A DNA stretch of 64,000 nt from Trypanosoma brucei (taxonomy: Eukaryota). The DNA is taken from positions 64,001-128,000 of the forward strand of contig CM000208.1 in assembly GCA_000002445.1 (NCBI GenBank). Reading direction: 5' to 3'. This document shows, piece after piece, positions 1-12,516 of the stretch. Each line of letters begins with the position of its first letter. Within the stretch, counting starts at the first letter, position 1. A model generated the notes under the pieces. It was given only the letters and a program-made list of their open reading frames with translations. It ran no database searches and was not told where the DNA came from. Both the position numbers and the translations under genes were made by a program.

Positions 1-599
1 TGCAATAACCGCTAAAGTTTCGCATCGCTTTCCAAGATGTAACATCGCTGTGCGTAAAACAGGTAACTTCTATTGAAAGCAGTGCGCCTCCGAATGCTGT
101 ATATCAAATTGGAGCTTCATTGTTGGTAACTGTTAAACTCTTCTCCAGCTATCAATTCAATGTCAGCTTCATCACCCTTCCCCTCTGGAATACGTGGGGC
201 TGAGGAACGTAGCACCGCTTCACGTCAGCTCCGGTGGCTACTGAATCTTGATCCCCGCTTCTAATTCCTACAACCTTTACACGTTTACATTAGAGTTATT
301 GGGAAAGCAGGCAAATGCCACACCAAGCTGTCCATCGTTTTCAGGCGCCAGCGTAACGGTTATGATTTCCAAAACCACAATTATTTTTTGGAGCGTTAGT
401 TACTCATATCCCGTTTCCAATGAGTATTGATACGTTTTTGTTCTTCATTTTACAGCAAGAGAACGCTGTGTATTGGTAATGGAAGCAAGCGTTCATTCTG
501 CCTTCCCCAACATTCGTCAGTGTCTCCAAAAGAAGGCGAAAGATCGCCACGTAGTTTTTTGTTGTTTCCGATATATGTGGCCCCTTTCCGCCGGCGAGA

Positions 600-1500
600 T
601 CTTACGTACTCCACTGAGACCTGTGGAAAATATGGGGTGGACACCTGCTGACACCGGCCCCGGGGAGGCGGGGGATTCAGTTAACGCACGGGGCGGGTCA
701 GCATCAGTGCCTCTGAAGGGTACACACGGAAGGAGAATGTGTACTTATGTGATGCGGTGGCCGCTCATTCTAACCGTCGTATGTTAAGGTTCAATATTGA
801 GCCGCTGCCACGATGCGGGTGATAGCCCATAGCTTTCTTTTGGGTGGTGCACCGGGTCCCGGAATCGCTCTCTCGTGGCTCGCGTGGTCGCAATGCAGCT
901 CGGATTTTGTGAGTGAACATCTTTTCCGCCTCTGTGGGACTTTGGTGGAGGTTGGTGGCGGAAGTTTTGGTGCTGCTGGTTTTGCCGTACACCCGGTTTG
1001 GTGTAGTCTTCCCCCTTTGCTGCGGTTTTTAGCCGTTTGGTCTGAAAGTGCATGGTCTTTTTACAAAGTGATTTGCTGGGTTGGGCACTGATGCGTTGCC
1101 TATTGTGGTCTCGCGTGCCTTAGGAAATGTTTTCGCTGGTGCTTTTGCTGTTGTATCACCCTGCTTTCAAGTCATTTGTTACATGTGTCGGGGTATGTTT
1201 GGTGCGTTACAAATGGTAGTGGTTAGTGTACGGCTATTGGCTGTTAGGCATATTGAAGGGTGTAGCATTAACATTTCGTAATGACTTTTTTCCCGTGTCG
1301 TGAGGGAAGTTGGTGGGAGTTGCAGTACTTTGCAGTGGCTACATAGGCTACCCGATTTTTTTTATTTAGTAAGTCTTGTAGTGCACACCTCCACCGCTAG
1401 ATCTTTGATGACAACAGATGCGCCTTCCCTTTTGAGTTGTGGGGACCACCCAGTGTTGTGGCAGGTGGGGGTGAAAGCGTGGAACTAATTGAATTTCGGG
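600..1500 (+). promoter_or_regulatory. GT/G-rich non-coding block ahead of the first gene: candidate Pol II transcription-start (GT-rich promoter) region
   Basis: G-runs ('ggggtgg', 'cggggaggcgggggat', 'cggggcgggtc') and sustained GT-rich sequence (ggtggtgcaccgggtcc...ggtggaggttggtggcgg...gtttggtgtag...). No ORF of coding quality in 1-3785. All downstream genes are + strand. Confidence 0.35.
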
Positions 1501-3785
1501 GTGAGGATTTGGTCTCACGGAAGAAATGGGAGGTTGACGACACCCTAACAACGATGTCGCTAACATCTGCTTCTCCTGGGTGAAGGGGTCCGGCGGGCTT
1601 CCACCTTGGGTTTTGGACGTCGCCACCGTACTGCACTTCGCTGCGAGAAATTTAACTAACATTAGGCTTATACCCCACCAGAGGCCCACAAGAGGTAATT
1701 CGTCACATGTCGCAAAGCTAATACACCTACCATCATAATCTGAGGCCGTAACCGTTGTATTTCCGTTCCGGCACTGCCAAAACAGGTTGCAATATCTTGG
1801 GTTCTTACATAAGAAGTCAACCGGTGATGACATTAGTTCGTTAGGTTGGTGAGCGATGCCGTGAGCCACTATGCATTTACATTAGCACAACTTCCGTTTA
1901 ATTGGTGGTGCCATTTTCGCATATCGAAACTCGAGCGCTGATACTTCCCGCGTGGCATTGCGTGGTTGGCGGCAGTAAGTTCTTGTTTTTCTTTTGCATG
2001 TTTACCTGGGCCCGAGCGATCTCTTTTTCTGTTAGATGTTTCGAAACCTTGGTTCATTTTACTTGTGCAAACGTAAATAGGTAGCATATTCGTTCCTTTC
2101 GTCTTTTAGAAATAGTTACTTTAGGGACACTCGAGTCGCTTTGCTGTGATTGCCAGCTGCGGCTGATTTTTTAAAATTATTCTTCCAACAGTGTTTGTAA
2201 TAGCATTGCTATTGTTTAGCTTTGGCGAGGGATATATTAAATATTTTTTGTGGGACATTATTTTTGTTGTGTGCTGCTGGTGGCGCATACTGAAGAGCCG
2301 TGGGCAAATCAAGTGCTTCTCGAGACATCCATATCCCACTGCTTTTGTGACTGCTTTTCTTCTTTATCTTTTTTGGATGTCTATGTTTTTTTACTTTAGT
2401 CTACAGGTGTATTTTTAAGTGATGGTGTAGATACTACCTATTTCGTACTGTGAGTCTCTGCTACTTTGTGCCGGGAATAGTTGTACAGTTTCTCACTTCC
2501 TTTTTACTTTTTTTTTGCAGCGGTTTTGAATAATTGTTTTGACACTGGTTGCTATGACATATTGTTCACGATGCATCCTTAAAAGTTTTGCGAGGTTAAG
2601 AAAATAAATTTATTGGCCGGATGTTTATATGTTTTCGGCAATATAATTTGTACTATTATTTTTGGTGCCTTTCTTCCCTTGTTTTGTTAACACTTTTACA
2701 TATATATATTTTTCATACTTAGATTGCGGTACGAGGTGCTCTTCGTACCATTACTTTTTTTCGCCCTTGTTTCCGGACCGAAAGGCACCTCTGCTAGTAG
2801 AATGATCGAACTTTTTATGTTATGCTTGTTATCTAAGTTACCTGCTTCAGGTGGGTTACTGTCCCTCTCGTGCCATTGTTGGATGATTGCAGATTGTTTT
2901 GAAGTATTTTTTTTGTTTATCGTTACTCACTTTTTTGTTGGATGTTTTGAAACTAGTTGTTATCCCGTTACGTTGTACACACTTTCCCTCCTCCCTGGTC
3001 GTGTACTGTCACTTTCTCTCTAAACATGGTTTTTGTGTATATGGCACTGGCTCCTTTGGACTGGGTCTTTTCATTACCCCTTATAAAAGAAAAATATACT
3101 TTATATATCTAATGTTTTTGTTTTGTGTTGCTCATTTTTTTTTTCTGGTGAACGTTTCACCGAATGTTGTTTTTGTACAACCGGCTACTGTGCATTGTTT
3201 GCGCCGTTAGTCGTTTTTAAGCTGTGAAGGGGAAGATGCTCACGTAATAGCAAAAATGAACTCGATGTTTTCCTCCCATATTTGAGCTCCGTACTTCACG
3301 AGCAGGGCACCAGATTGCGTGTGTGTACACTTTCTGCCATGTATTGCGCACACATTTGGTATGCGAACTTCAAGCTGTTGGGAGTGACTGCATTTGGCTT
3401 CTTTCCCCCTTTGTACTGTGTTATAAAAAAAAAAAATAAAATATCGTTTGCTACAACGGTGCCCCAACAATGTGGTTTGAGGTATGGGAATGGCATTTTA
3501 GGACCCTGCCTGTATTATTGTGTTTTCTTAAAACACATTTTCGTACGCGTTGGTGTTTGGTAGTTGCACATGTACCGCTTACTTCTTTTAAGTTTAATTC
3601 TCATTCCATGTTGTTCATACATTTGTCCCGGTGCAAGCGAGTGACAACAACAGTTGAGTACTTAAGTACCCCATTTCCGTCATGTATGGAAACCAAGGTC
3701 TTGTGCTATGTTCTATTTAGTAACAAGCCATCATGTTTTACAACGCGATTATATATATTACTATATTTTCTCTTTTAGTCACCGA

Positions 3786-4310
3786 ATGAGCACTAGTGAA
3801 CGGCGTCGCTATGGGTTTCAGCGTACCTCCAAAGAGATAAGAAATGAAAGGAAGCTTAACAAGATGCAAAAATGGAGTGAAAAGCTAGACAGCTGTGATG
3901 TCGTTAAATTGCGCACGGAGCTACGTTCCATGGAGAAAGCCGACTTCCTGCTCCCTCGTCAGAAAGAACGAAAGACACTGATAGAAAGAATGATACGAGA
4001 TGCTGAGCTAAGGAAGTGTGTTGAGGGTACCGCTCCCATTTCATGTGAACAGCGACCCAATGAAGATACCCAAGACAATTCGAGCTGCTCCAGTAGATGT
4101 GACGATATTATCCTTAGTCCCCGTCTGGGTGTAGGGGATGGTGTTGTGGTTACGACGCCAGATCACTTCATTCCGAGATCATTGAGAAAAAGGTGTGGTG
4201 GGAACAACAGTCAGGAGGGTCTAAAGAAACGGGTGAAGAGGGCAGAAGAGCACTTGATTGCTAACAATTCGTTGGAGGAAGATATTGATGATTTTTTTGA
4301 TTCTCTCTAG
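3786..4310 (+). CDS. Basic K/R/E-rich hypothetical protein (174 aa). It may instead be the N-terminal part of the downstream nucleotidyltransferase gene if a frameshift is present
   Basis: ATG at 3786 (the track ORF 3708 starts earlier). Charged, low-complexity translation with no recognisable domain. Its 3' end overlaps the next ORF by 53 nt in a different frame. Confidence 0.35.
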   Translation: MSTSERRRYGFQRTSKEIRNERKLNKMQKWSEKLDSCDVVKLRTELRSMEKADFLLPRQKERKTLIERMIRDAELRKCVEGTAPISCEQRPNEDTQDNSSCSSRCDDIILSPRLGVGDGVVVTTPDHFIPRSLRKRCGGNNSQEGLKKRVKRAEEHLIANNSLEEDIDDFFDSL

Positions 4311-4494
4311 TTGGTGTGAATCTAACTTTGCTCCGCTCTTGCTTGCCTGGGTCTCTGTGGACTGCTGCCAACCGAGTTCACAGAGCTCCGTCATCGTTAT
4401 TTTGTCGTATGCCAGAATTCGACTTTCTCTGGATGGTATATTGCGGTCACCCTATTATACTACTGGGAAAAGGGGGATTACACTATACCTATTT

Positions 4495-5622
4495 ATGGCT
4501 TTAGTTCGTAGGATAGGATCATCCCTGCTATCTCACAAGGAGTACAGCCGTTTCCTTGATAACAGAAAGTGGCTTGAAGGTGCCCTTGAGGGGTTTTCGA
4601 TTGAGAATGTTTTAGGTATTTCTCAATTGTCTTCTCGACCCTCTGTTTTAATGTATGGGTCGTGTGTTTCTGGAACGGCTTTTAGCAATGCAGATGCTGA
4701 TTACGCAGTGTTATTTCTCACGCAAGGGAATACTGAGGAGTCGTCAATGGCTAACATGCTGAACTATACGCATTCAAAATTTATTGAAGTGAAACGAGAG
4801 CATCATCAGAGGGTTCTCTTGGCAATTTTGGAGCATATCAGGGTATCTTTCTGTTCGACGGTGCTGAAGTGCGAGCAAATTTACTCGGCTCGTGTTCCTT
4901 TTATTCGGCTTTTCAAGAGTAGTGCGAATAACACAGAGGGAAGTCACTTGGATGTGTCTCTTTCTTTTGATGGTCCCAGAAATTCTTTGTTGCTTAGGCT
5001 TTACATGGAGGGGGACCCACGCCTTAGGTGCGGCGTTCTTTGTGCGAAGAAATGGTGCCGCTCTCAAGGTATTCTTGATGCTCGTCGAGGTTGGATTTCT
5101 GCATACGCCCTCACTGTCATGTATATATTTTACATGCAGGTGACGAAGAGAGCAGTGCGTATTATTGATGAAAGTGAAGTCAACAATATTCTGTATTGTA
5201 TGTCGAAGCAAATGTTGGAGGGGGTCAATGAATGCTTTCCTTTTGTTGGAGATGTATGTTCTTGTAGTGACGTTGACATACAGAATGTTTTAAGTGATTT
5301 ACATGGCTTTTTTCATTTCTTTGGGGGCTCAATGTGTTTTGATTTTGATACTGATGTCGTTGACATTAGGAAAAATGACAAACTTGTTTCGAAAGAATCT
5401 TGGTTGGAGGGAATCAATCATTTTGATGAGAAGACTCGTTGGAATCTCCTGGGTTACGAAACTATTATGATCCGTGACCCATACGAAGACCACAATTTAG
5501 GTCGTAGTGTGGATTTCTTTCGCGGCGAGAGAATCAGAGAGGTTTTTCGTTTGGCGTCGGAGACCAAGATTGAGGATGTTTTAAACGAGTTAGCAAAACA
5601 AGGAAGGCTTTCTAGTGTTTGA
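4495..5622 (+). CDS. Non-canonical poly(A) polymerase / terminal uridylyltransferase-like nucleotidyltransferase (Cid1 family)
   Basis: Motif 'MYGSCVSGTAFSNADADYAVLF' matches the NTase hG[GS]x9-13DxD signature; a third acidic residue lies in 'HLDVSLSF'. The PAP/25A-associated-like segment 'GWISAYALTVMYIFYMQV' matches 'SSYALTLMVI'. The start is uncertain: ATG at 4495 (MALVRR...), with the track ORF beginning at TTG 4258. Confidence 0.6.
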   Translation: MALVRRIGSSLLSHKEYSRFLDNRKWLEGALEGFSIENVLGISQLSSRPSVLMYGSCVSGTAFSNADADYAVLFLTQGNTEESSMANMLNYTHSKFIEVKREHHQRVLLAILEHIRVSFCSTVLKCEQIYSARVPFIRLFKSSANNTEGSHLDVSLSFDGPRNSLLLRLYMEGDPRLRCGVLCAKKWCRSQGILDARRGWISAYALTVMYIFYMQVTKRAVRIIDESEVNNILYCMSKQMLEGVNECFPFVGDVCSCSDVDIQNVLSDLHGFFHFFGGSMCFDFDTDVVDIRKNDKLVSKESWLEGINHFDEKTRWNLLGYETIMIRDPYEDHNLGRSVDFFRGERIREVFRLASETKIEDVLNELAKQGRLSSV

Positions 5623-5947
5623 AACACTAGCCGGTGCTGCGAATTGCAACTACGTCTTCCTATCAAGGAACAAAGAATTCTAATAATAATATATTTTGCA
5701 AATGGATGCGCGCACACTGAACTAGCAGCTCTGCACTGACTGTAGTGAGAAGGTGTTTTTTCTTGTTTATTATCGGTTTTTGTTTGCACGGGTAAGTTAG
5801 GTCCCCCCTATTTATGCGCCCACAGTGTAACTCTTATGCCACTTATGTGTTCGAAGAAAACGGGGACGTGTTGTGTGCATATTTCCATGTTTTTTCTCTG
5901 TATAAGAATTGTTGAGAAGAATAAGCTACTCGATAACGAAGTTACCT

Positions 5948-8397: not shown

Positions 8398-8662
8398 TAT
8401 TTGTTCATAAATGCGGTAGGTATGCGTGCGACCGTGATGTTTGTGGTATAGGTAGGCAACATGTTTTTTTTGTGGTTCGTAGGTGTAAGGCTCTTTCTAT
8501 CACTTCTATTGGTTTTTGGTGCAGATGTGCACTCCCTTTCCCTACTGAGTGATAAAAAAAAATGGTTTGGTTAATGCCGTTTCTGAGTGTATGTATGAAG
8601 TACACGAAAATGGACACCTATGTACATTCTTTTTTGTAATTTGTCAAGAAAGAGTGGCTCCG

Positions 8663-9415
8663 ATGAAGTTGAATGTCGCCTATCCACGGAACGGCACCGT
8701 CAAGCAGGTTGAAGTAACCGATGAGGTCCTCCGCCGTGTCAACTTGGGCGACTACCGCCTTGGCAACGAGGTGGACGGCGCCATATTTGGTGAGGCCTTT
8801 AGGGGTTACACCTTCAAACTTCGTGGCGGTTCCGATAAAGAGGGATTTCCAATGGTGCAAGGCGTAATGGCCCCAAGTCGTGTGTCACTTCTTGTGAAGC
8901 GTGGCGCTGTTGGCTTCAACACCTTCCGTGGTTATCAGGGTGAGCGTCGCCGCAAGTCCCTCCGTGGCTGCATTCTTGGGAGCGACATTGCCGTGCTGAA
9001 CGTCACTGTGGAGAAGGTCGGTGAGCAACCAATCGAGGGTGTGACAGACGTGTCGGTACCTCGGCGTTTGGGACCCAAGCGCGCGAACAAAATACGTAAG
9101 CTCTTCAATCTCGGTCGCACGGATGACGTACGCAAGTATGTGATCCGTCGGAAGGTGACGAAAGAGGGCAAGAAGGACCGTTTCAAGGCACCCAAGATCC
9201 AACGTCTCATCACCTCCACGATTAGGGCACGCCGCGCCAAGAAAGTGCGCGTCGCCATTGATAAAGTTCGCAAATCGGCAGCCGAGCGCCGTGAGTACCT
9301 CCGCCTCGTTGGTGCTCGCCGCCGCGCTGCCCGCCAGCGTAAGGCGGCTCGTCATCACTCAAGCAGGGTGAATGCACAGAGGAAGGAGGTTGATGCCTTC
9401 AAGGCACGGAAGTAG
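8663..9415 (+). CDS. RPS6: 40S ribosomal protein S6 (eS6)
   Basis: 'MKLNVAYPRNGTVKQVEVTDE...GFPMVQGVMAPSRVSLLVKRGAVGFNTFRGYQGERRRKSLRGCI' is the universally conserved eS6 N-terminus, followed by a basic C-terminal tail. Confidence 0.95.
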   Translation: MKLNVAYPRNGTVKQVEVTDEVLRRVNLGDYRLGNEVDGAIFGEAFRGYTFKLRGGSDKEGFPMVQGVMAPSRVSLLVKRGAVGFNTFRGYQGERRRKSLRGCILGSDIAVLNVTVEKVGEQPIEGVTDVSVPRRLGPKRANKIRKLFNLGRTDDVRKYVIRRKVTKEGKKDRFKAPKIQRLITSTIRARRAKKVRVAIDKVRKSAAERREYLRLVGARRRAARQRKAARHHSSRVNAQRKEVDAFKARK

Positions 9416-12017: not shown

Positions 12018-12234
12018 ATGGGTTTAACTGTAACAAAAAGTCAGGGCGCATTCTGGTGGTATGTTGTCTTCGTTTTCCCACTCCCTCCGCTTCACTTCTT
12101 GTACTTTGTTCCCCCCTGAAGGTTTTGCCCCTTATTTCACTTTTGTACTTCGTAAACAAAGACACGACGTGAAACCTCCCTCTTTCCTGCTTTCCCCTAC
12201 TTTGCTCGTTTTCTTTAGCTGCTGCGAAGTTACG

Positions 12235-12516
12235 ATGGCAAAGCGTACCGTCAAGATGGGCGTCATGGGGCGCTATGGCGCCCGCTATGGTTCGAACCCA
12301 CGTAAGCGCGCCAAGAAGCTGGAGGTGTCTCAGCATGCGAAACACTTCTGCTCCTTCTGCGGGAAGTTTGCCTTTCGGCGCAAGGCCGTTGGCATTTGGC
12401 GCTGCGATGGTTGCAGCAAAACTGTCGCTGGTGGCGCCTACACGCTTAGCACACCAAACAACACCACGGTGCGTTCCACCGTTCGCCGCCTTCGTGAGCT
12501 GAAGCAGTCTAACTAA
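12235..12516 (+). CDS. RPL37A: 60S ribosomal protein L37a (eL43)
   Basis: '[19 protein letters not shown]...[32 protein letters not shown]' contains the C4 zinc ribbon of eL43. ATG verified at 12235. Confidence 0.95.

What the first reader, a model, noticed from the sequence alone, without database searches (positions are those of the whole stretch)
3786..5622. Overlapping out-of-frame ORFs upstream of a Cid1-type nucleotidyltransferase: either a frameshifted single gene or two unusually tightly packed genes
ORF 3786-4310 (basic/acidic low complexity) ends 53 nt after ORF 4258-5622 begins in another frame. The downstream ORF carries a complete NTase catalytic signature ('GSCVSGTAFSNADADYAV', then 'DVSLSF') and a PAP-associated-like 'SAYALTVMYIFYMQV'. 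Its first 79 codons up to the first good ATG (4495) look non-coding, which leaves only about 185 nt for polyadenylation and trans-splicing signals between the genes, short for a kinetoplastid. A +1/-1 frameshift (a real pseudogenising event or an assembly indel near 4260-4310) joining a charged N-terminal extension to the NTase domain is an equally good reading. Terminal uridylyl and poly(A) transferases are central to kinetoplastid RNA editing and turnover, so the true gene structure matters.
Basis: seen in the sequence. Interest (0 to 1): 0.5.

Follow-up and report, generated by a model that had tools for sequence, protein, structure and literature searches.

The report
Two separate genes: small protein, KPAP2
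The apparent overlap comes from reading an open frame back to the previous stop codon: these are two separate, already annotated Trypanosoma brucei genes, a small conserved protein and the mitochondrial nucleotidyltransferase KPAP2, 184 bases apart, with no frameshift.

Summary
ORF 3786-4310 and the stop-to-stop frame 4258-5622 overlap by 53 nt in different frames.

The window is T. b. brucei TREU927. The 375-aa product of 4495-5619 is 100% identical to XP_822276.1. This is KPAP2 (Tb927.10.160): a published antibody peptide and both cloning primers match it exactly. The reference annotates the upstream ORF as a separate neighbouring gene, XP_822275.1.

All the stand-alone orthologues aligned or profiled start at the Met aligned with ATG 4495. 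All T. brucei-group copies and nearly all ~45 family members of the upstream protein end at or one residue past the Leu before TAG 4308-4310; three distant ones differ.

In six other species, from Trypanosoma to Leptomonas, the two genes are adjacent and separate. Spacers are 184-416 nt, the frame offset varies (0, 1, 2), and stops close the NTase frame 7-35 codons upstream.

Independent T. brucei-group assemblies show no indel. A 79-codon stop-free run is expected about 4-5% of the time. Neighbouring spacers are 193-250 nt.

Verdict: two genes, no frameshift, already known.

Residual points:
- The GenBank KPAP2 entry (444 aa) starts at ATG 4288.
- One unverifiable EukProt model joins both proteins.
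- The upstream protein has only sub-threshold Wbp11 similarity.

The parts
3786..4310 (+). CDS of a small conserved kinetoplastid protein of 174 aa. It is the gene next to KPAP2 in the TREU927 annotation (XP_822275.1, annotated from ATG 3708 as 200 aa). It ends ...DDFFDSL, then TAG.
   Evidence: It is 100% identical to XP_822275.1 over the shared part. About 45 homologues of 157-242 aa (plus a few longer distant relatives) were found; the trypanosomatid ones start at the Met aligned with 3786, and nearly all end at or one residue past the same C-terminal Leu. Strain differences fall mostly at codon position 3 (5 of 7).
3708..3785 (+). A 26-codon N-terminal extension present in the reference annotation. 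It is probably 5' non-coding.
   Evidence: No orthologue has it. A pyrimidine-rich tract followed by AG 3777-3778 lies 7 nt before ATG 3786 (read from the sequence).
4258..4494 (+). A stop-free stretch of 79 codons in the KPAP2 frame. It is non-coding. It contains a TTG at 4258 and an in-frame ATG at 4288.
   Evidence: It is absent from all orthologues. Its codon-usage score of -0.08 per codon lies between the coding mean (0.26) and the intergenic mean (-0.46). A stretch of this length is expected by chance about 4-5% of the time.
4292..4298 (+). A T7 run inside the overlap. It encodes the Phe-Phe of FFDSL. It is the only plausible place for a sequencing indel or a +1 slip.
   Evidence: The sequence is identical in two independent assemblies. 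Both frames are kept in 12 T. brucei-group records.
4311..4494 (+). The 184-nt intergenic spacer. It must hold the poly(A) site of the upstream gene and the spliced-leader acceptor of KPAP2.
   Evidence: Orthologous spacers are 184 nt (T. theileri), 191 (T. vivax), 235 (T. grayi), 252 (T. rangeli), 255 (T. cruzi marinkellei), 284 (L010) and 416 (Leptomonas).
4326..4348 (+). Candidate polypyrimidine tract 1 (23 nt). The next usable AG is at 4382-4383, giving a genomic 5'UTR of 111 nt.
   Evidence: using the tract definition of PMC2936537. This is a sequence prediction only.
4386..4415 (+). Candidate polypyrimidine tract 2 (28 nt) with an AG at 4414-4415, giving a 5'UTR of 79 nt.
   Evidence: This is a sequence prediction only.
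4447..4472 (+). Candidate tract 3 (18 nt, weak) with an AG at 4471-4472, giving a 5'UTR of 22 nt. This is the only acceptor that puts a poly(A) site about 142 nt upstream, beyond the upstream stop codon.
   Evidence: In the orthologues the longest tract also sits just before an AG 12-54 nt from the ATG. This is an inference.
4495..5622 (+). KPAP2 CDS (Tb927.10.160, XP_822276.1), 375 aa and 42.9 kDa. It is a Cid1-family non-canonical nucleotidyltransferase.
   Evidence: The published cloning primers match 4495-4520 and 5594-5619 exactly. The antibody peptide ETKIEDVLNELAKQGRLSSV equals the C-terminus.
4657..4710 (+). Catalytic motif GSCVSGTAFSNADADYAV, containing G55, S56, D67 and D69.
   Evidence: invariant columns.
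4951..4968 (+). DVSLSF, containing the third catalytic Asp (D153).
   Evidence: D, S and S are invariant.

Best explanation
The region holds two independent, co-directional protein-coding genes of one T. brucei polycistron. Gene 1 (3786-4310) encodes a 174-aa helical and charged protein that is conserved throughout kinetoplastids. Gene 2 (4495-5622) encodes KPAP2, a 375-aa mitochondrial Cid1-family nucleotidyltransferase.

The 'overlapping ORF' exists only because the 237 nt before the true ATG happen to lack a stop in that frame, and because a bacterial ORF rule accepts TTG 4258 as a start.

What is shown:
- The gene identities.
- The two separate products.
- The start of KPAP2 at ATG 4495.
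- The stop of gene 1 at 4308-4310.
- The absence of any indel.

What is inferred about how it works: the 184-nt spacer is close to a minimal processing unit. A polypyrimidine tract and AG in the spacer direct spliced-leader addition to KPAP2. The coupled polyadenylation of gene 1 then falls roughly 120-180 nt upstream. That distance leaves the stop codon intact only if the acceptor is close to the ATG (the AG at 4471, or less well the one at 4414) and the 3'UTR of gene 1 is very short, tens of nucleotides. The KPAP2 N-terminus MALVRRIGSSLL..., basic with no acidic residue before E16, would then be exposed as the mitochondrial presequence.
For: Identity:
- The window products are 100% identical to TREU927 XP_822276.1 (375 aa) and XP_822275.1. 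These are adjacent accessions for separate genes. The same holds in DAL972 (CBH14925 and CBH14926).
- The KPAP2 antibody peptide and both cloning primers from PMC11732105 match the window exactly.

Start codon:
- The aligned Trypanosoma orthologues begin exactly at the Met aligned with ATG 4495. Leptomonas and L. tarentolae begin one residue earlier, and two Leishmania models carry short extensions.
- In a profile search of all 37 homologues, none except unverified or long models carries more N-terminal sequence.
- KPAP2 expressed from ATG 4495 goes to the organellar fraction. The native protein runs just under 38 kDa against a calculated 43 kDa.

Stop codon:
- The upstream protein family numbers about 45 members. 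All T. brucei-group copies end at the same Leu, and nearly all other members end there or one residue later.

Synteny:
- Gene 1, KPAP2, Cbf5 and ATP synthase gamma lie in this order in T. theileri, T. vivax, T. grayi and T. rangeli; T. cruzi marinkellei shows it too, on a contig that cuts gene 1 short.
- Leptomonas and an AT-rich kinetoplastid (L010) also have the order, with a SET-domain gene inserted before Cbf5.
- Gene 1 and KPAP2 are always called separately.

No conserved frame relation:
- The offsets are 1, 1, 2, 1, 0, 0, 2 and 2.
- The KPAP2 frame is closed 7-35 codons upstream of the ATG in the other species.

No indel:
- There are zero gaps across 4092-5711 in two Logan assemblies that are 98.5-98.6% identical to the window.
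- Twelve T. brucei-group records keep both frames.

Signals and background:
- The spacer carries polypyrimidine tracts followed by AG dinucleotides, as do all orthologous spacers.
- Neighbouring spacers in the window are 193-250 nt.
Against: - No RNA-level data could be reached. The spliced-leader and poly(A) sites are predictions (searches found no per-gene tables).
- The GenBank KPAP2 entry ABV66278.1 is 444 aa and starts at the ATG 4288 equivalent, so at least one group read the longer ORF.
[quoted passage not shown] The authors treat these as non-specific.
- Codon usage of the 79-codon stretch is intermediate, not clearly non-coding.
- One EukProt gene model, P0072, joins homologues of both proteins in one frame.
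- With a typical distance of 142 nt between poly(A) site and splice site, two of the three candidate acceptors would place the poly(A) site inside gene 1.
Confidence: 0.93

Rival explanations
1. KPAP2 has a longer isoform. Alternative trans-splicing at an acceptor inside gene 1's CDS would give an mRNA that includes ATG 4288. Its product would be 444 aa (50.7 kDa) with a hydrophobic, uncharged N-terminus (MIFLILSSWCESNFAPLLLAW...) instead of the mitochondrial presequence. This would be restricted to the T. brucei group.
For: - ATG 4288 is in frame and open through to 4495.
- GenBank ABV66278.1, 'putative mitochondrial poly(A) polymerase 2', is annotated this way.
- The stretch is kept open in all 6 T. 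brucei-group sequences that cover it, with only one amino-acid difference.
- PMC11732105 cites transcript 'Tb927.10.160.2', which implies more than one transcript model.
- Alternative trans-splicing that changes N-termini is documented in T. brucei. PMC2916883 reports 588 transcripts with possible N-terminal extensions, and PMC3273800 describes IleRS dual targeting.
- An extra band just over 38 kDa appears on the immunoblot.
Against: - The extension is absent or closed by stops in every other species.
- Its sequence has no family match, and its codon-usage score is below the coding range.
- The validated native KPAP2 band is under 38 kDa, not 51 kDa.
- Conservation within the T. brucei group is uninformative at 1.5% divergence.
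- The protein is mitochondrial, and the 444-aa N-terminus lacks basic residues.
Confidence: 0.05
2. The region is a single gene broken by a frameshift. The cause would be either a pseudogenising mutation or an assembly error in 4260-4310, for example in the T7 run. The ancestral product would be a charged N-terminal domain fused to the NTase.
For: - The frames overlap by 53 nt, and a homopolymer (T7, 4292-4298) sits in the overlap.
- One EukProt model (P0072, 822 aa) carries both homologues in one frame, 8 residues apart.
Against: - The same sequence is found in the TREU927, DAL972, T. equiperdum and T. b. equiperdum assemblies, in a cloned gene, and in several Logan assemblies.
- Every other orthologue of either protein is stand-alone, ending or starting at the same residue.
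- The join would pass through 61 spacer codons that are unrelated between species and closed by stops elsewhere.
- Strain substitutions in gene 1 are mostly synonymous-type, and KPAP2 is expressed as a protein of about 38-43 kDa.
- P0072 has 236 N-terminal and 52 C-terminal junk residues, so the model is unreliable.
Confidence: 0.01
3. A programmed +1 ribosomal frameshift, or transcriptional slippage, on the U7/T7 run occasionally makes a fusion protein of about 70 kDa.
For: - A +1 slip of tRNA-Phe on TTT TTT (4293-4298) would enter the KPAP2 frame, which is open from there on (read from the sequence).
- The antiserum shows a doublet near 60 kDa.
Against: - The frame offset is not conserved (0, 1 or 2), and orthologous spacers carry stops in the NTase frame.
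- There is no known stimulatory element, and Rfam finds nothing.
- The calculated fusion is about 70 kDa, not 60.
- The 60-kDa bands were judged non-specific by the authors.
Confidence: 0.01

Closest known systems
T. brucei KPAP2 (kinetoplast poly(A) polymerase 2, Tb927.10.160; XP_822276.1 / Q38CM2)
   Same: The sequence is identical (375 of 375 residues). The published antibody peptide and cloning primers match. PMC11732105 describes it as a non-essential mitochondrial PAP-family protein with subtle effects on mRNA 3' tails.
   Different: Nothing differs; this is that gene. The only discrepancy is that GenBank ABV66278.1 annotates 444 aa, starting at the upstream ATG.
Cid1 / GLD-2 / TUTase family of non-canonical nucleotidyltransferases (S. 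pombe Cid1; T. brucei RET1, RET2, TUT4)
   Same: It has a palm domain with hG[GS] and a DxD...D triad, plus a PAP-associated domain. The best solved relative is Cid1 (E 1.9e-14). RET1, RET2 and TUT4 are also hit.
   Different: It is a minimal two-domain enzyme with no solved structure of its own. Its nucleotide specificity was not determinable here.
The gene next to KPAP2 in the TREU927 annotation (XP_822275.1, 'hypothetical protein, conserved'); presumably Tb927.10.150 by numbering, not checked here
   Same: It is identical over the 200-aa annotated product.
   Different: Orthologue alignment supports a start at ATG 3786, giving 174 aa, not ATG 3708.
WBP11 (WW domain-binding protein 11 / SIPP1), Pfam Wbp11 PF09429
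   Same: - Several orthologues of the upstream protein hit the Wbp11 N-terminal model in the same register: profile positions 11-76 against residues about 11-77.
- The model predicts a confident three-helix N-terminal domain (pLDDT above 90 for residues about 15-80).
- From my own memory, not tested here: human WBP11 also has a C-terminal 'FVPxxLRxRR' element and an acidic/hydrophobic extreme C-terminus.
   Different: - All hits are below the gathering score (best 17.8 bits against 24.3), and the window protein itself gives no hit.
- hhalign against a WBP11 N-terminus gives a probability of 0.2%.
- There is no proline-rich region.
- There is no PDB sequence or fold match.
Alternative trans-splicing that changes N-termini in T. 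brucei (e.g. IleRS dual targeting, PMC3273800; SL trapping, PMC2916883)
   Same: This is the mechanism that a 444-aa KPAP2 isoform would need.
   Different: No splice-site data exist for this gene in what I could read, and the extension is not conserved.

Membership tests
Cid1-family non-canonical poly(A)/uridylyl transferase | Pol-beta-type palm domain plus PAP-associated domain, both above the Pfam gathering scores | tested here: met
   MTPAP-like_central scores 32.9 bits (cutoff 27). PAP_assoc scores 28.6 bits (cutoff 22.6).
Cid1-family non-canonical poly(A)/uridylyl transferase | Catalytic G[GS] motif and three acidic residues (DxD ... D) | tested here: met
   G55-S56, D67, D69 and D153 are invariant in 16 orthologues. 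The region aligns to Cid1.
Cid1-family non-canonical poly(A)/uridylyl transferase | Untemplated nucleotide addition to RNA 3' ends, and its A or U specificity | not testable with these tools
   Only literature is available. PMC11732105 reports subtle tail effects and no proven general PAP activity.
T. brucei KPAP2 (Tb927.10.160) | Sequence identity to the reference protein and to published reagents | tested here: met
   The product is 100% identical to XP_822276.1. The peptide and both primers match exactly.
Frameshifted or fused single gene | Orthologues encode the two parts as one ORF | tested here: not met
   Six genomic loci show two separate genes. Of about 80 homologues, only the unverified model P0072 has both domains.
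Frameshifted or fused single gene | An indel in the junction relative to independent sequences | tested here: not met
   There is no gap and no difference between 4146 and 4448 in the two Logan assemblies. Both frames are kept in 12 records.
Programmed ribosomal frameshift | Conserved frame relation and an open downstream frame across species | tested here: not met
   The offsets vary (0, 1, 2). Stops close the NTase frame 7-35 codons upstream of the ATG.
Trypanosomatid intergenic processing region | Polypyrimidine tract followed by an AG without G at -3, upstream of the ATG | tested here: met
   Three candidate tract/AG pairs lie in 4326-4472. Equivalent ones occur in all orthologous spacers.
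Trypanosomatid intergenic processing region | Mapped spliced-leader junction and poly(A) site | not testable with these tools
   No per-gene tables are held for PMC2936537, PMC2926603 or PMC2916883. The Logan contigs are genomic, with no SL sequence.
WBP11 (Pfam Wbp11) for the upstream protein | Match to PF09429 at or above the gathering score | tested here: not met
   The best score is 17.8 bits against 24.3, and the window protein gives no hit. hhalign probability is 0.2%.

The most novel reading that the evidence does not exclude
In the T. brucei group only, the stop-free stretch with ATG 4288 would be used. A minor spliced-leader acceptor inside the upstream gene's coding sequence would yield a 444-aa KPAP2 isoform with a hydrophobic, non-mitochondrial N-terminus. 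The mature mRNAs of the two genes would therefore overlap.

A related unexcluded point is that the two genes may be functionally coupled. They are adjacent from Trypanosoma to Leishmania, and they are joined, or only about 21 nt apart, in one EukProt model.
Probability: 0.05. Interest if true: 0.4.

Novelty: already known. Interest (0 to 1): 0.08.

Why it matters
It matters little for discovery. Both genes are in the T. brucei reference annotation, and KPAP2 has been studied experimentally. The value of this check is practical.

- It shows that ORF overlaps produced by stop-to-stop reading, or by bacterial start codons, should not be taken as frameshifts in kinetoplastid sequence.
- It settles the KPAP2 start codon at ATG 4495, against a 444-aa GenBank entry.
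- It suggests that the neighbouring gene is annotated 26 codons too long.
- It documents a conserved and nearly minimal spacer of about 184-255 nt. This spacer could serve as a compact test case for coupled polyadenylation and trans-splicing.

Tried and rejected
- **Per-gene splice and poly(A) tables.** I looked in Kolev 2010, Siegel 2010 and Nilsson 2010. The files were either not held or did not contain the gene IDs. Kao & Read 2007 is not held.
- **RNA-derived contigs.** The exact 375-aa product is not on record. Logan contigs L006 and L012 are collinear genomic sequence without spliced leader.
- **Codon-usage scoring of the 79-codon stretch.** The result was intermediate and not decisive.
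- **Function of the upstream protein.**
  - Pfam gives only sub-threshold Wbp11 hits.
  - A PDB profile search found nothing.
  - The AlphaFold model (pLDDT 72.7) has no Foldseek PDB match below E = 2.
  - The AFDB library was not available.
- **Fusion model P0072.** No DNA is retrievable and the species is unknown. I rejected it as evidence for a fusion in T. brucei because of its junk flanks.
- **The 154-aa ORF overlapping the NTase start in L009.** It is an unrelated spurious TTG ORF.
- **Rfam scan of the whole window.** It found nothing.
Full report
**Observation.** The coordinates are right.
- ORF 3786-4310 starts at an ATG and ends at TAG 4308-4310, giving 174 codons.
- A second frame is open from 4258, just after TGA 4255-4257, to TGA 5620-5622. 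The two overlap by 53 nt with a +1 offset.
- The 'start' at 4258 is a TTG, accepted only because the ORF finder uses bacterial rules.
- In that frame there are ATGs at 4288 and 4495.
- The nucleotidyltransferase signature is real. Pfam MTPAP-like_central and PAP_assoc both score above their cutoffs.
- The G-S motif and the three catalytic aspartates (D67, D69 and D153 of the 375-aa protein) are invariant in 16 orthologues.

**Identity.** The window is Trypanosoma brucei brucei TREU927.
- The product of 4495-5619 is 100% identical to XP_822276.1 / EAN77448.1 (375 aa).
- The product of 3708-4307 is 100% identical to XP_822275.1 / EAN77447.1 (200 aa). These are adjacent accessions on the same 4.05-Mb record.
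- The 375-aa protein is KPAP2 (Tb927.10.160).
  - PMC11732105 gives the peptide used to raise the KPAP2 antibody, ETKIEDVLNELAKQGRLSSV. This is the C-terminus of the window ORF.
  - Its Table S1 cloning primers match window 4495-4520 and 5594-5619 exactly.
- The same paper reports several relevant facts:
  - KPAP2 has an estimated size of 43 kDa. The 375-aa product calculates to 42.9 kDa.
  - The validated native band runs just under 38 kDa.
  - The protein expressed from this ATG fractionates with organelles.

**The start of KPAP2 is ATG 4495.**
- The aligned Trypanosoma orthologues begin at the Met aligned with 4495: T. congolense, T. theileri, T. melophagium, T. cruzi marinkellei, T. vivax, T. 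rangeli, T. grayi and T. conorhini. Leptomonas and L. tarentolae begin one residue earlier, and two Leishmania models carry short extensions.
- Orthologue lengths are 351-382 aa.
- The N-terminal motif M-x-L-x-x-R-L-x-S-L-L-L is conserved. It has the character of a mitochondrial presequence; this last point is an inference.
- The 79 codons before it have no counterpart in any other species.

**The stop of the upstream gene is genuine.**
- The 174-aa protein belongs to a family found throughout kinetoplastids. A word-indexed search found 26 proteins, and an exhaustive profile search of representatives found 29 at E up to 0.001.
- Most members are 157-242 aa. Most named ones are annotated 'hypothetical protein'.
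- All T. brucei-group copies end at the same Leu. Nearly all other members end there or one residue later, in an acidic-hydrophobic motif (D-D-F-F-D-S-L in Trypanosoma) followed by a stop; three distant members differ.
- Between TREU927 and a strain 1.5% divergent, 5 of the 7 substitutions in this ORF fall at codon position 3.

**Comparative gene structure.** I fetched the orthologous loci of T. theileri, T. vivax, T. grayi, T. rangeli, T. cruzi marinkellei and Leptomonas pyrrhocoris, plus an AT-rich kinetoplastid from Logan.
- In T. theileri, T. vivax, T. grayi and T. rangeli the order is small protein, KPAP2, Cbf5, ATP synthase gamma. T. cruzi marinkellei shows the same order, but its contig cuts the small-protein gene short.
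- Leptomonas and the AT-rich kinetoplastid have a SET-domain gene inserted before Cbf5.
- The first two genes are always separate.
- The spacer from stop to ATG is 184, 191, 235, 252, 255, 416 and 284 nt respectively, against 184 nt in the window.
- The frame offset between the two ORFs, in window-first order, is 1, 1, 2, 1, 0, 0, 2, 2.
- In the other species the KPAP2 frame is closed by a stop 7-35 codons upstream of the ATG and never reaches the upstream gene.
- No conserved frame relation therefore exists, which excludes an ancestral fusion or a conserved programmed frameshift.

**No sequencing artefact.**
- The only indel-prone element in the overlap is a T7 run (4292-4298).
- Two independent Logan assemblies (ERR7929163 and ERR7929157, 98.5-98.6% identical) align across it with no gap, and neither differs from the window between 4146 and 4448.
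- Six T. brucei-group records of the upstream protein end in DDFFDSL. Six records that cover the stretch in the KPAP2 frame begin MIFLILSSW. Both frames therefore read the same in TREU927, DAL972, T. equiperdum, a cloned gene and several short-read assemblies.

**Chance.**
- In this window's intergenic DNA the stop-codon frequency is 4.0%. The probability of 79 open codons is therefore about 4%. Empirically, 5.4% of intergenic positions have such a run behind them.
- With about 30 genes in the window, one such case is expected.
- The same over-extension is seen at L37ae, where the domain begins at residue 62 of the first-ATG ORF, and at S6e, where it begins at residue 25.
- Codon-usage scoring of the stretch is intermediate. 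It scores -0.08 per codon, against 0.26 ± 0.14 for coding sequence and -0.46 ± 0.25 for intergenic sequence. KPAP2 itself scores only 0.10, so I do not lean on this measure.

**Is 184 nt too short?**
- Genome-wide figures from PMC2936537:
  - The median 5'UTR is 130 nt including the 39-nt leader.
  - The median 3'UTR is 388 nt, with a range down to 10 nt.
  - The median distance from poly(A) site to downstream splice site is 142 nt, with half the cases between 123 and 178 nt.
- PMC2916883 gives a median 5'UTR of 32-47 nt.
- A spacer of 184 nt is therefore near the minimum, but it is feasible.
- It is typical of this neighbourhood, where spacers are 193, 211, 228, 246, 248 and 250 nt.
- It is conserved at 184-255 nt across Trypanosoma.
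- The spacer holds three tract-plus-AG candidates:

| Polypyrimidine tract | AG acceptor | Genomic 5'UTR |
|---|---|---|
| 4326-4348 | 4382 | 111 nt |
| 4386-4413 | 4414 | 79 nt |
| 4447-4464 | 4471 | 22 nt |

- In the orthologues the longest tract sits about 130-180 nt after the stop, with an AG 12-54 nt before the ATG.
- My inference is that the acceptor close to the ATG is the main one, and that the upstream gene is polyadenylated a few tens of nucleotides after its stop. This is a prediction, not a result. I could not reach any RNA-level data.

**Residual points.**
1. GenBank ABV66278.1, 'putative mitochondrial poly(A) polymerase 2', is 444 aa. It starts at the ATG 4288 equivalent, inside the upstream gene.
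   - Given the orthologues, the native band size and the hydrophobic, uncharged N-terminus this would create, I regard it as an over-extended annotation.
   - A minor isoform made by alternative trans-splicing cannot be excluded (about 5%).
2. The reference annotation of the upstream gene (200 aa; 209 aa in DAL972) starts at ATG 3708. All orthologues start at the Met aligned with 3786, and a pyrimidine tract plus AG 3777-3778 lies just before that ATG.
3. One EukProt model (P0072, 822 aa) carries homologues of both proteins in one frame, 8 residues apart.
   - It also has 236 N-terminal and 52 C-terminal residues of I/L/F/Y-rich junk.
   - It has Glu residues embedded in runs of A/T-only codons. 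This suggests a reassigned-stop translation or a spurious ab initio model.
   - No DNA was obtainable.
4. The upstream protein's function is unknown.
   - Several orthologues hit Pfam Wbp11 in a consistent register, but below threshold (best E 0.0044, 17.8 bits against a cutoff of 24.3).
   - A profile-to-sequence comparison with a WBP11 N-terminus is negative.
   - The AlphaFold model has a confident three-helix N-terminal domain, a disordered middle and short C-terminal helices. It has no significant PDB match.

**Verdict.** These are two separate, already annotated genes, a conserved hypothetical protein and KPAP2, in a compact and conserved arrangement. The overlap is an artefact of how the ORF was delimited. 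There is no frameshift and no pseudogene. Novelty: already known. Interest: low.

Noticed in passing
window 3708-3785: The reference annotation of the upstream gene (XP_822275.1, 200 aa; 209 aa in T. b. gambiense) starts at ATG 3708. All orthologues start at the Met aligned with ATG 3786, and a pyrimidine tract plus AG 3777-3778 lies 7 nt before that ATG. The annotated N-terminal 26 residues are probably not translated.
   Followed up: partly
window 4288-4494: GenBank ABV66278.1, 'putative mitochondrial poly(A) polymerase 2', is 444 aa. It starts at the in-frame ATG 4288 inside the upstream gene, 69 residues longer than the genome annotation and all orthologues.
   Followed up: yes
protein P0072 (EukProt 'gene10124-7088_t'); no DNA available: This is a single 822-aa gene model. 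It carries a homologue of the upstream protein (residues 244-406) and a KPAP2 homologue (from M415), 8 residues apart in one frame, with low-complexity junk at both ends. It is either a reassigned-stop or mis-modelled locus, or a real fusion or near-abutment in an unknown AT-rich kinetoplastid.
   Followed up: partly
window 12061-12516 and 8591-9415: The same kind of stop-free 5' over-extension occurs at other genes. The L37ae domain starts only at residue 62 of the first-ATG ORF, which would otherwise leave a 43-nt spacer after Gaa1. The S6e domain starts at residue 25.
   Followed up: partly
L004 7784-8941; L010 2267-3439: A SET-domain gene lies between KPAP2 and Cbf5 in Leptomonas pyrrhocoris and in an AT-rich kinetoplastid (Logan SRR22803245). 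It is absent at that position in all Trypanosoma loci and in the window.
   Followed up: no
L008/L009 2341-6059: In another Logan kinetoplastid (SRR22803237/46), the KPAP2-like gene is preceded by an ALG11-type glycosyltransferase and about 1.1 kb without the small-protein gene. The 154-aa ORF that overlaps its ATG by 4 nt is a spurious TTG ORF.
   Followed up: partly
window 1-3700: There is no long plus-strand ORF before the small-protein gene. From about 2000 to 3400 the sequence is T-rich on the + strand (AT skew down to -0.42) with low GC (about 0.36-0.39). In T. theileri and T. grayi an amino-acid transporter gene precedes the pair. This may be the start of the polycistron or a chromosome-internal boundary.
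   Followed up: no
L005 4484-5137: The T. rangeli assembly has a run of N inside the orthologue of the upstream gene, so its 217-aa gene call has a false N-terminal half. A second 175-aa ORF lies at 3575-4102.
   Followed up: no
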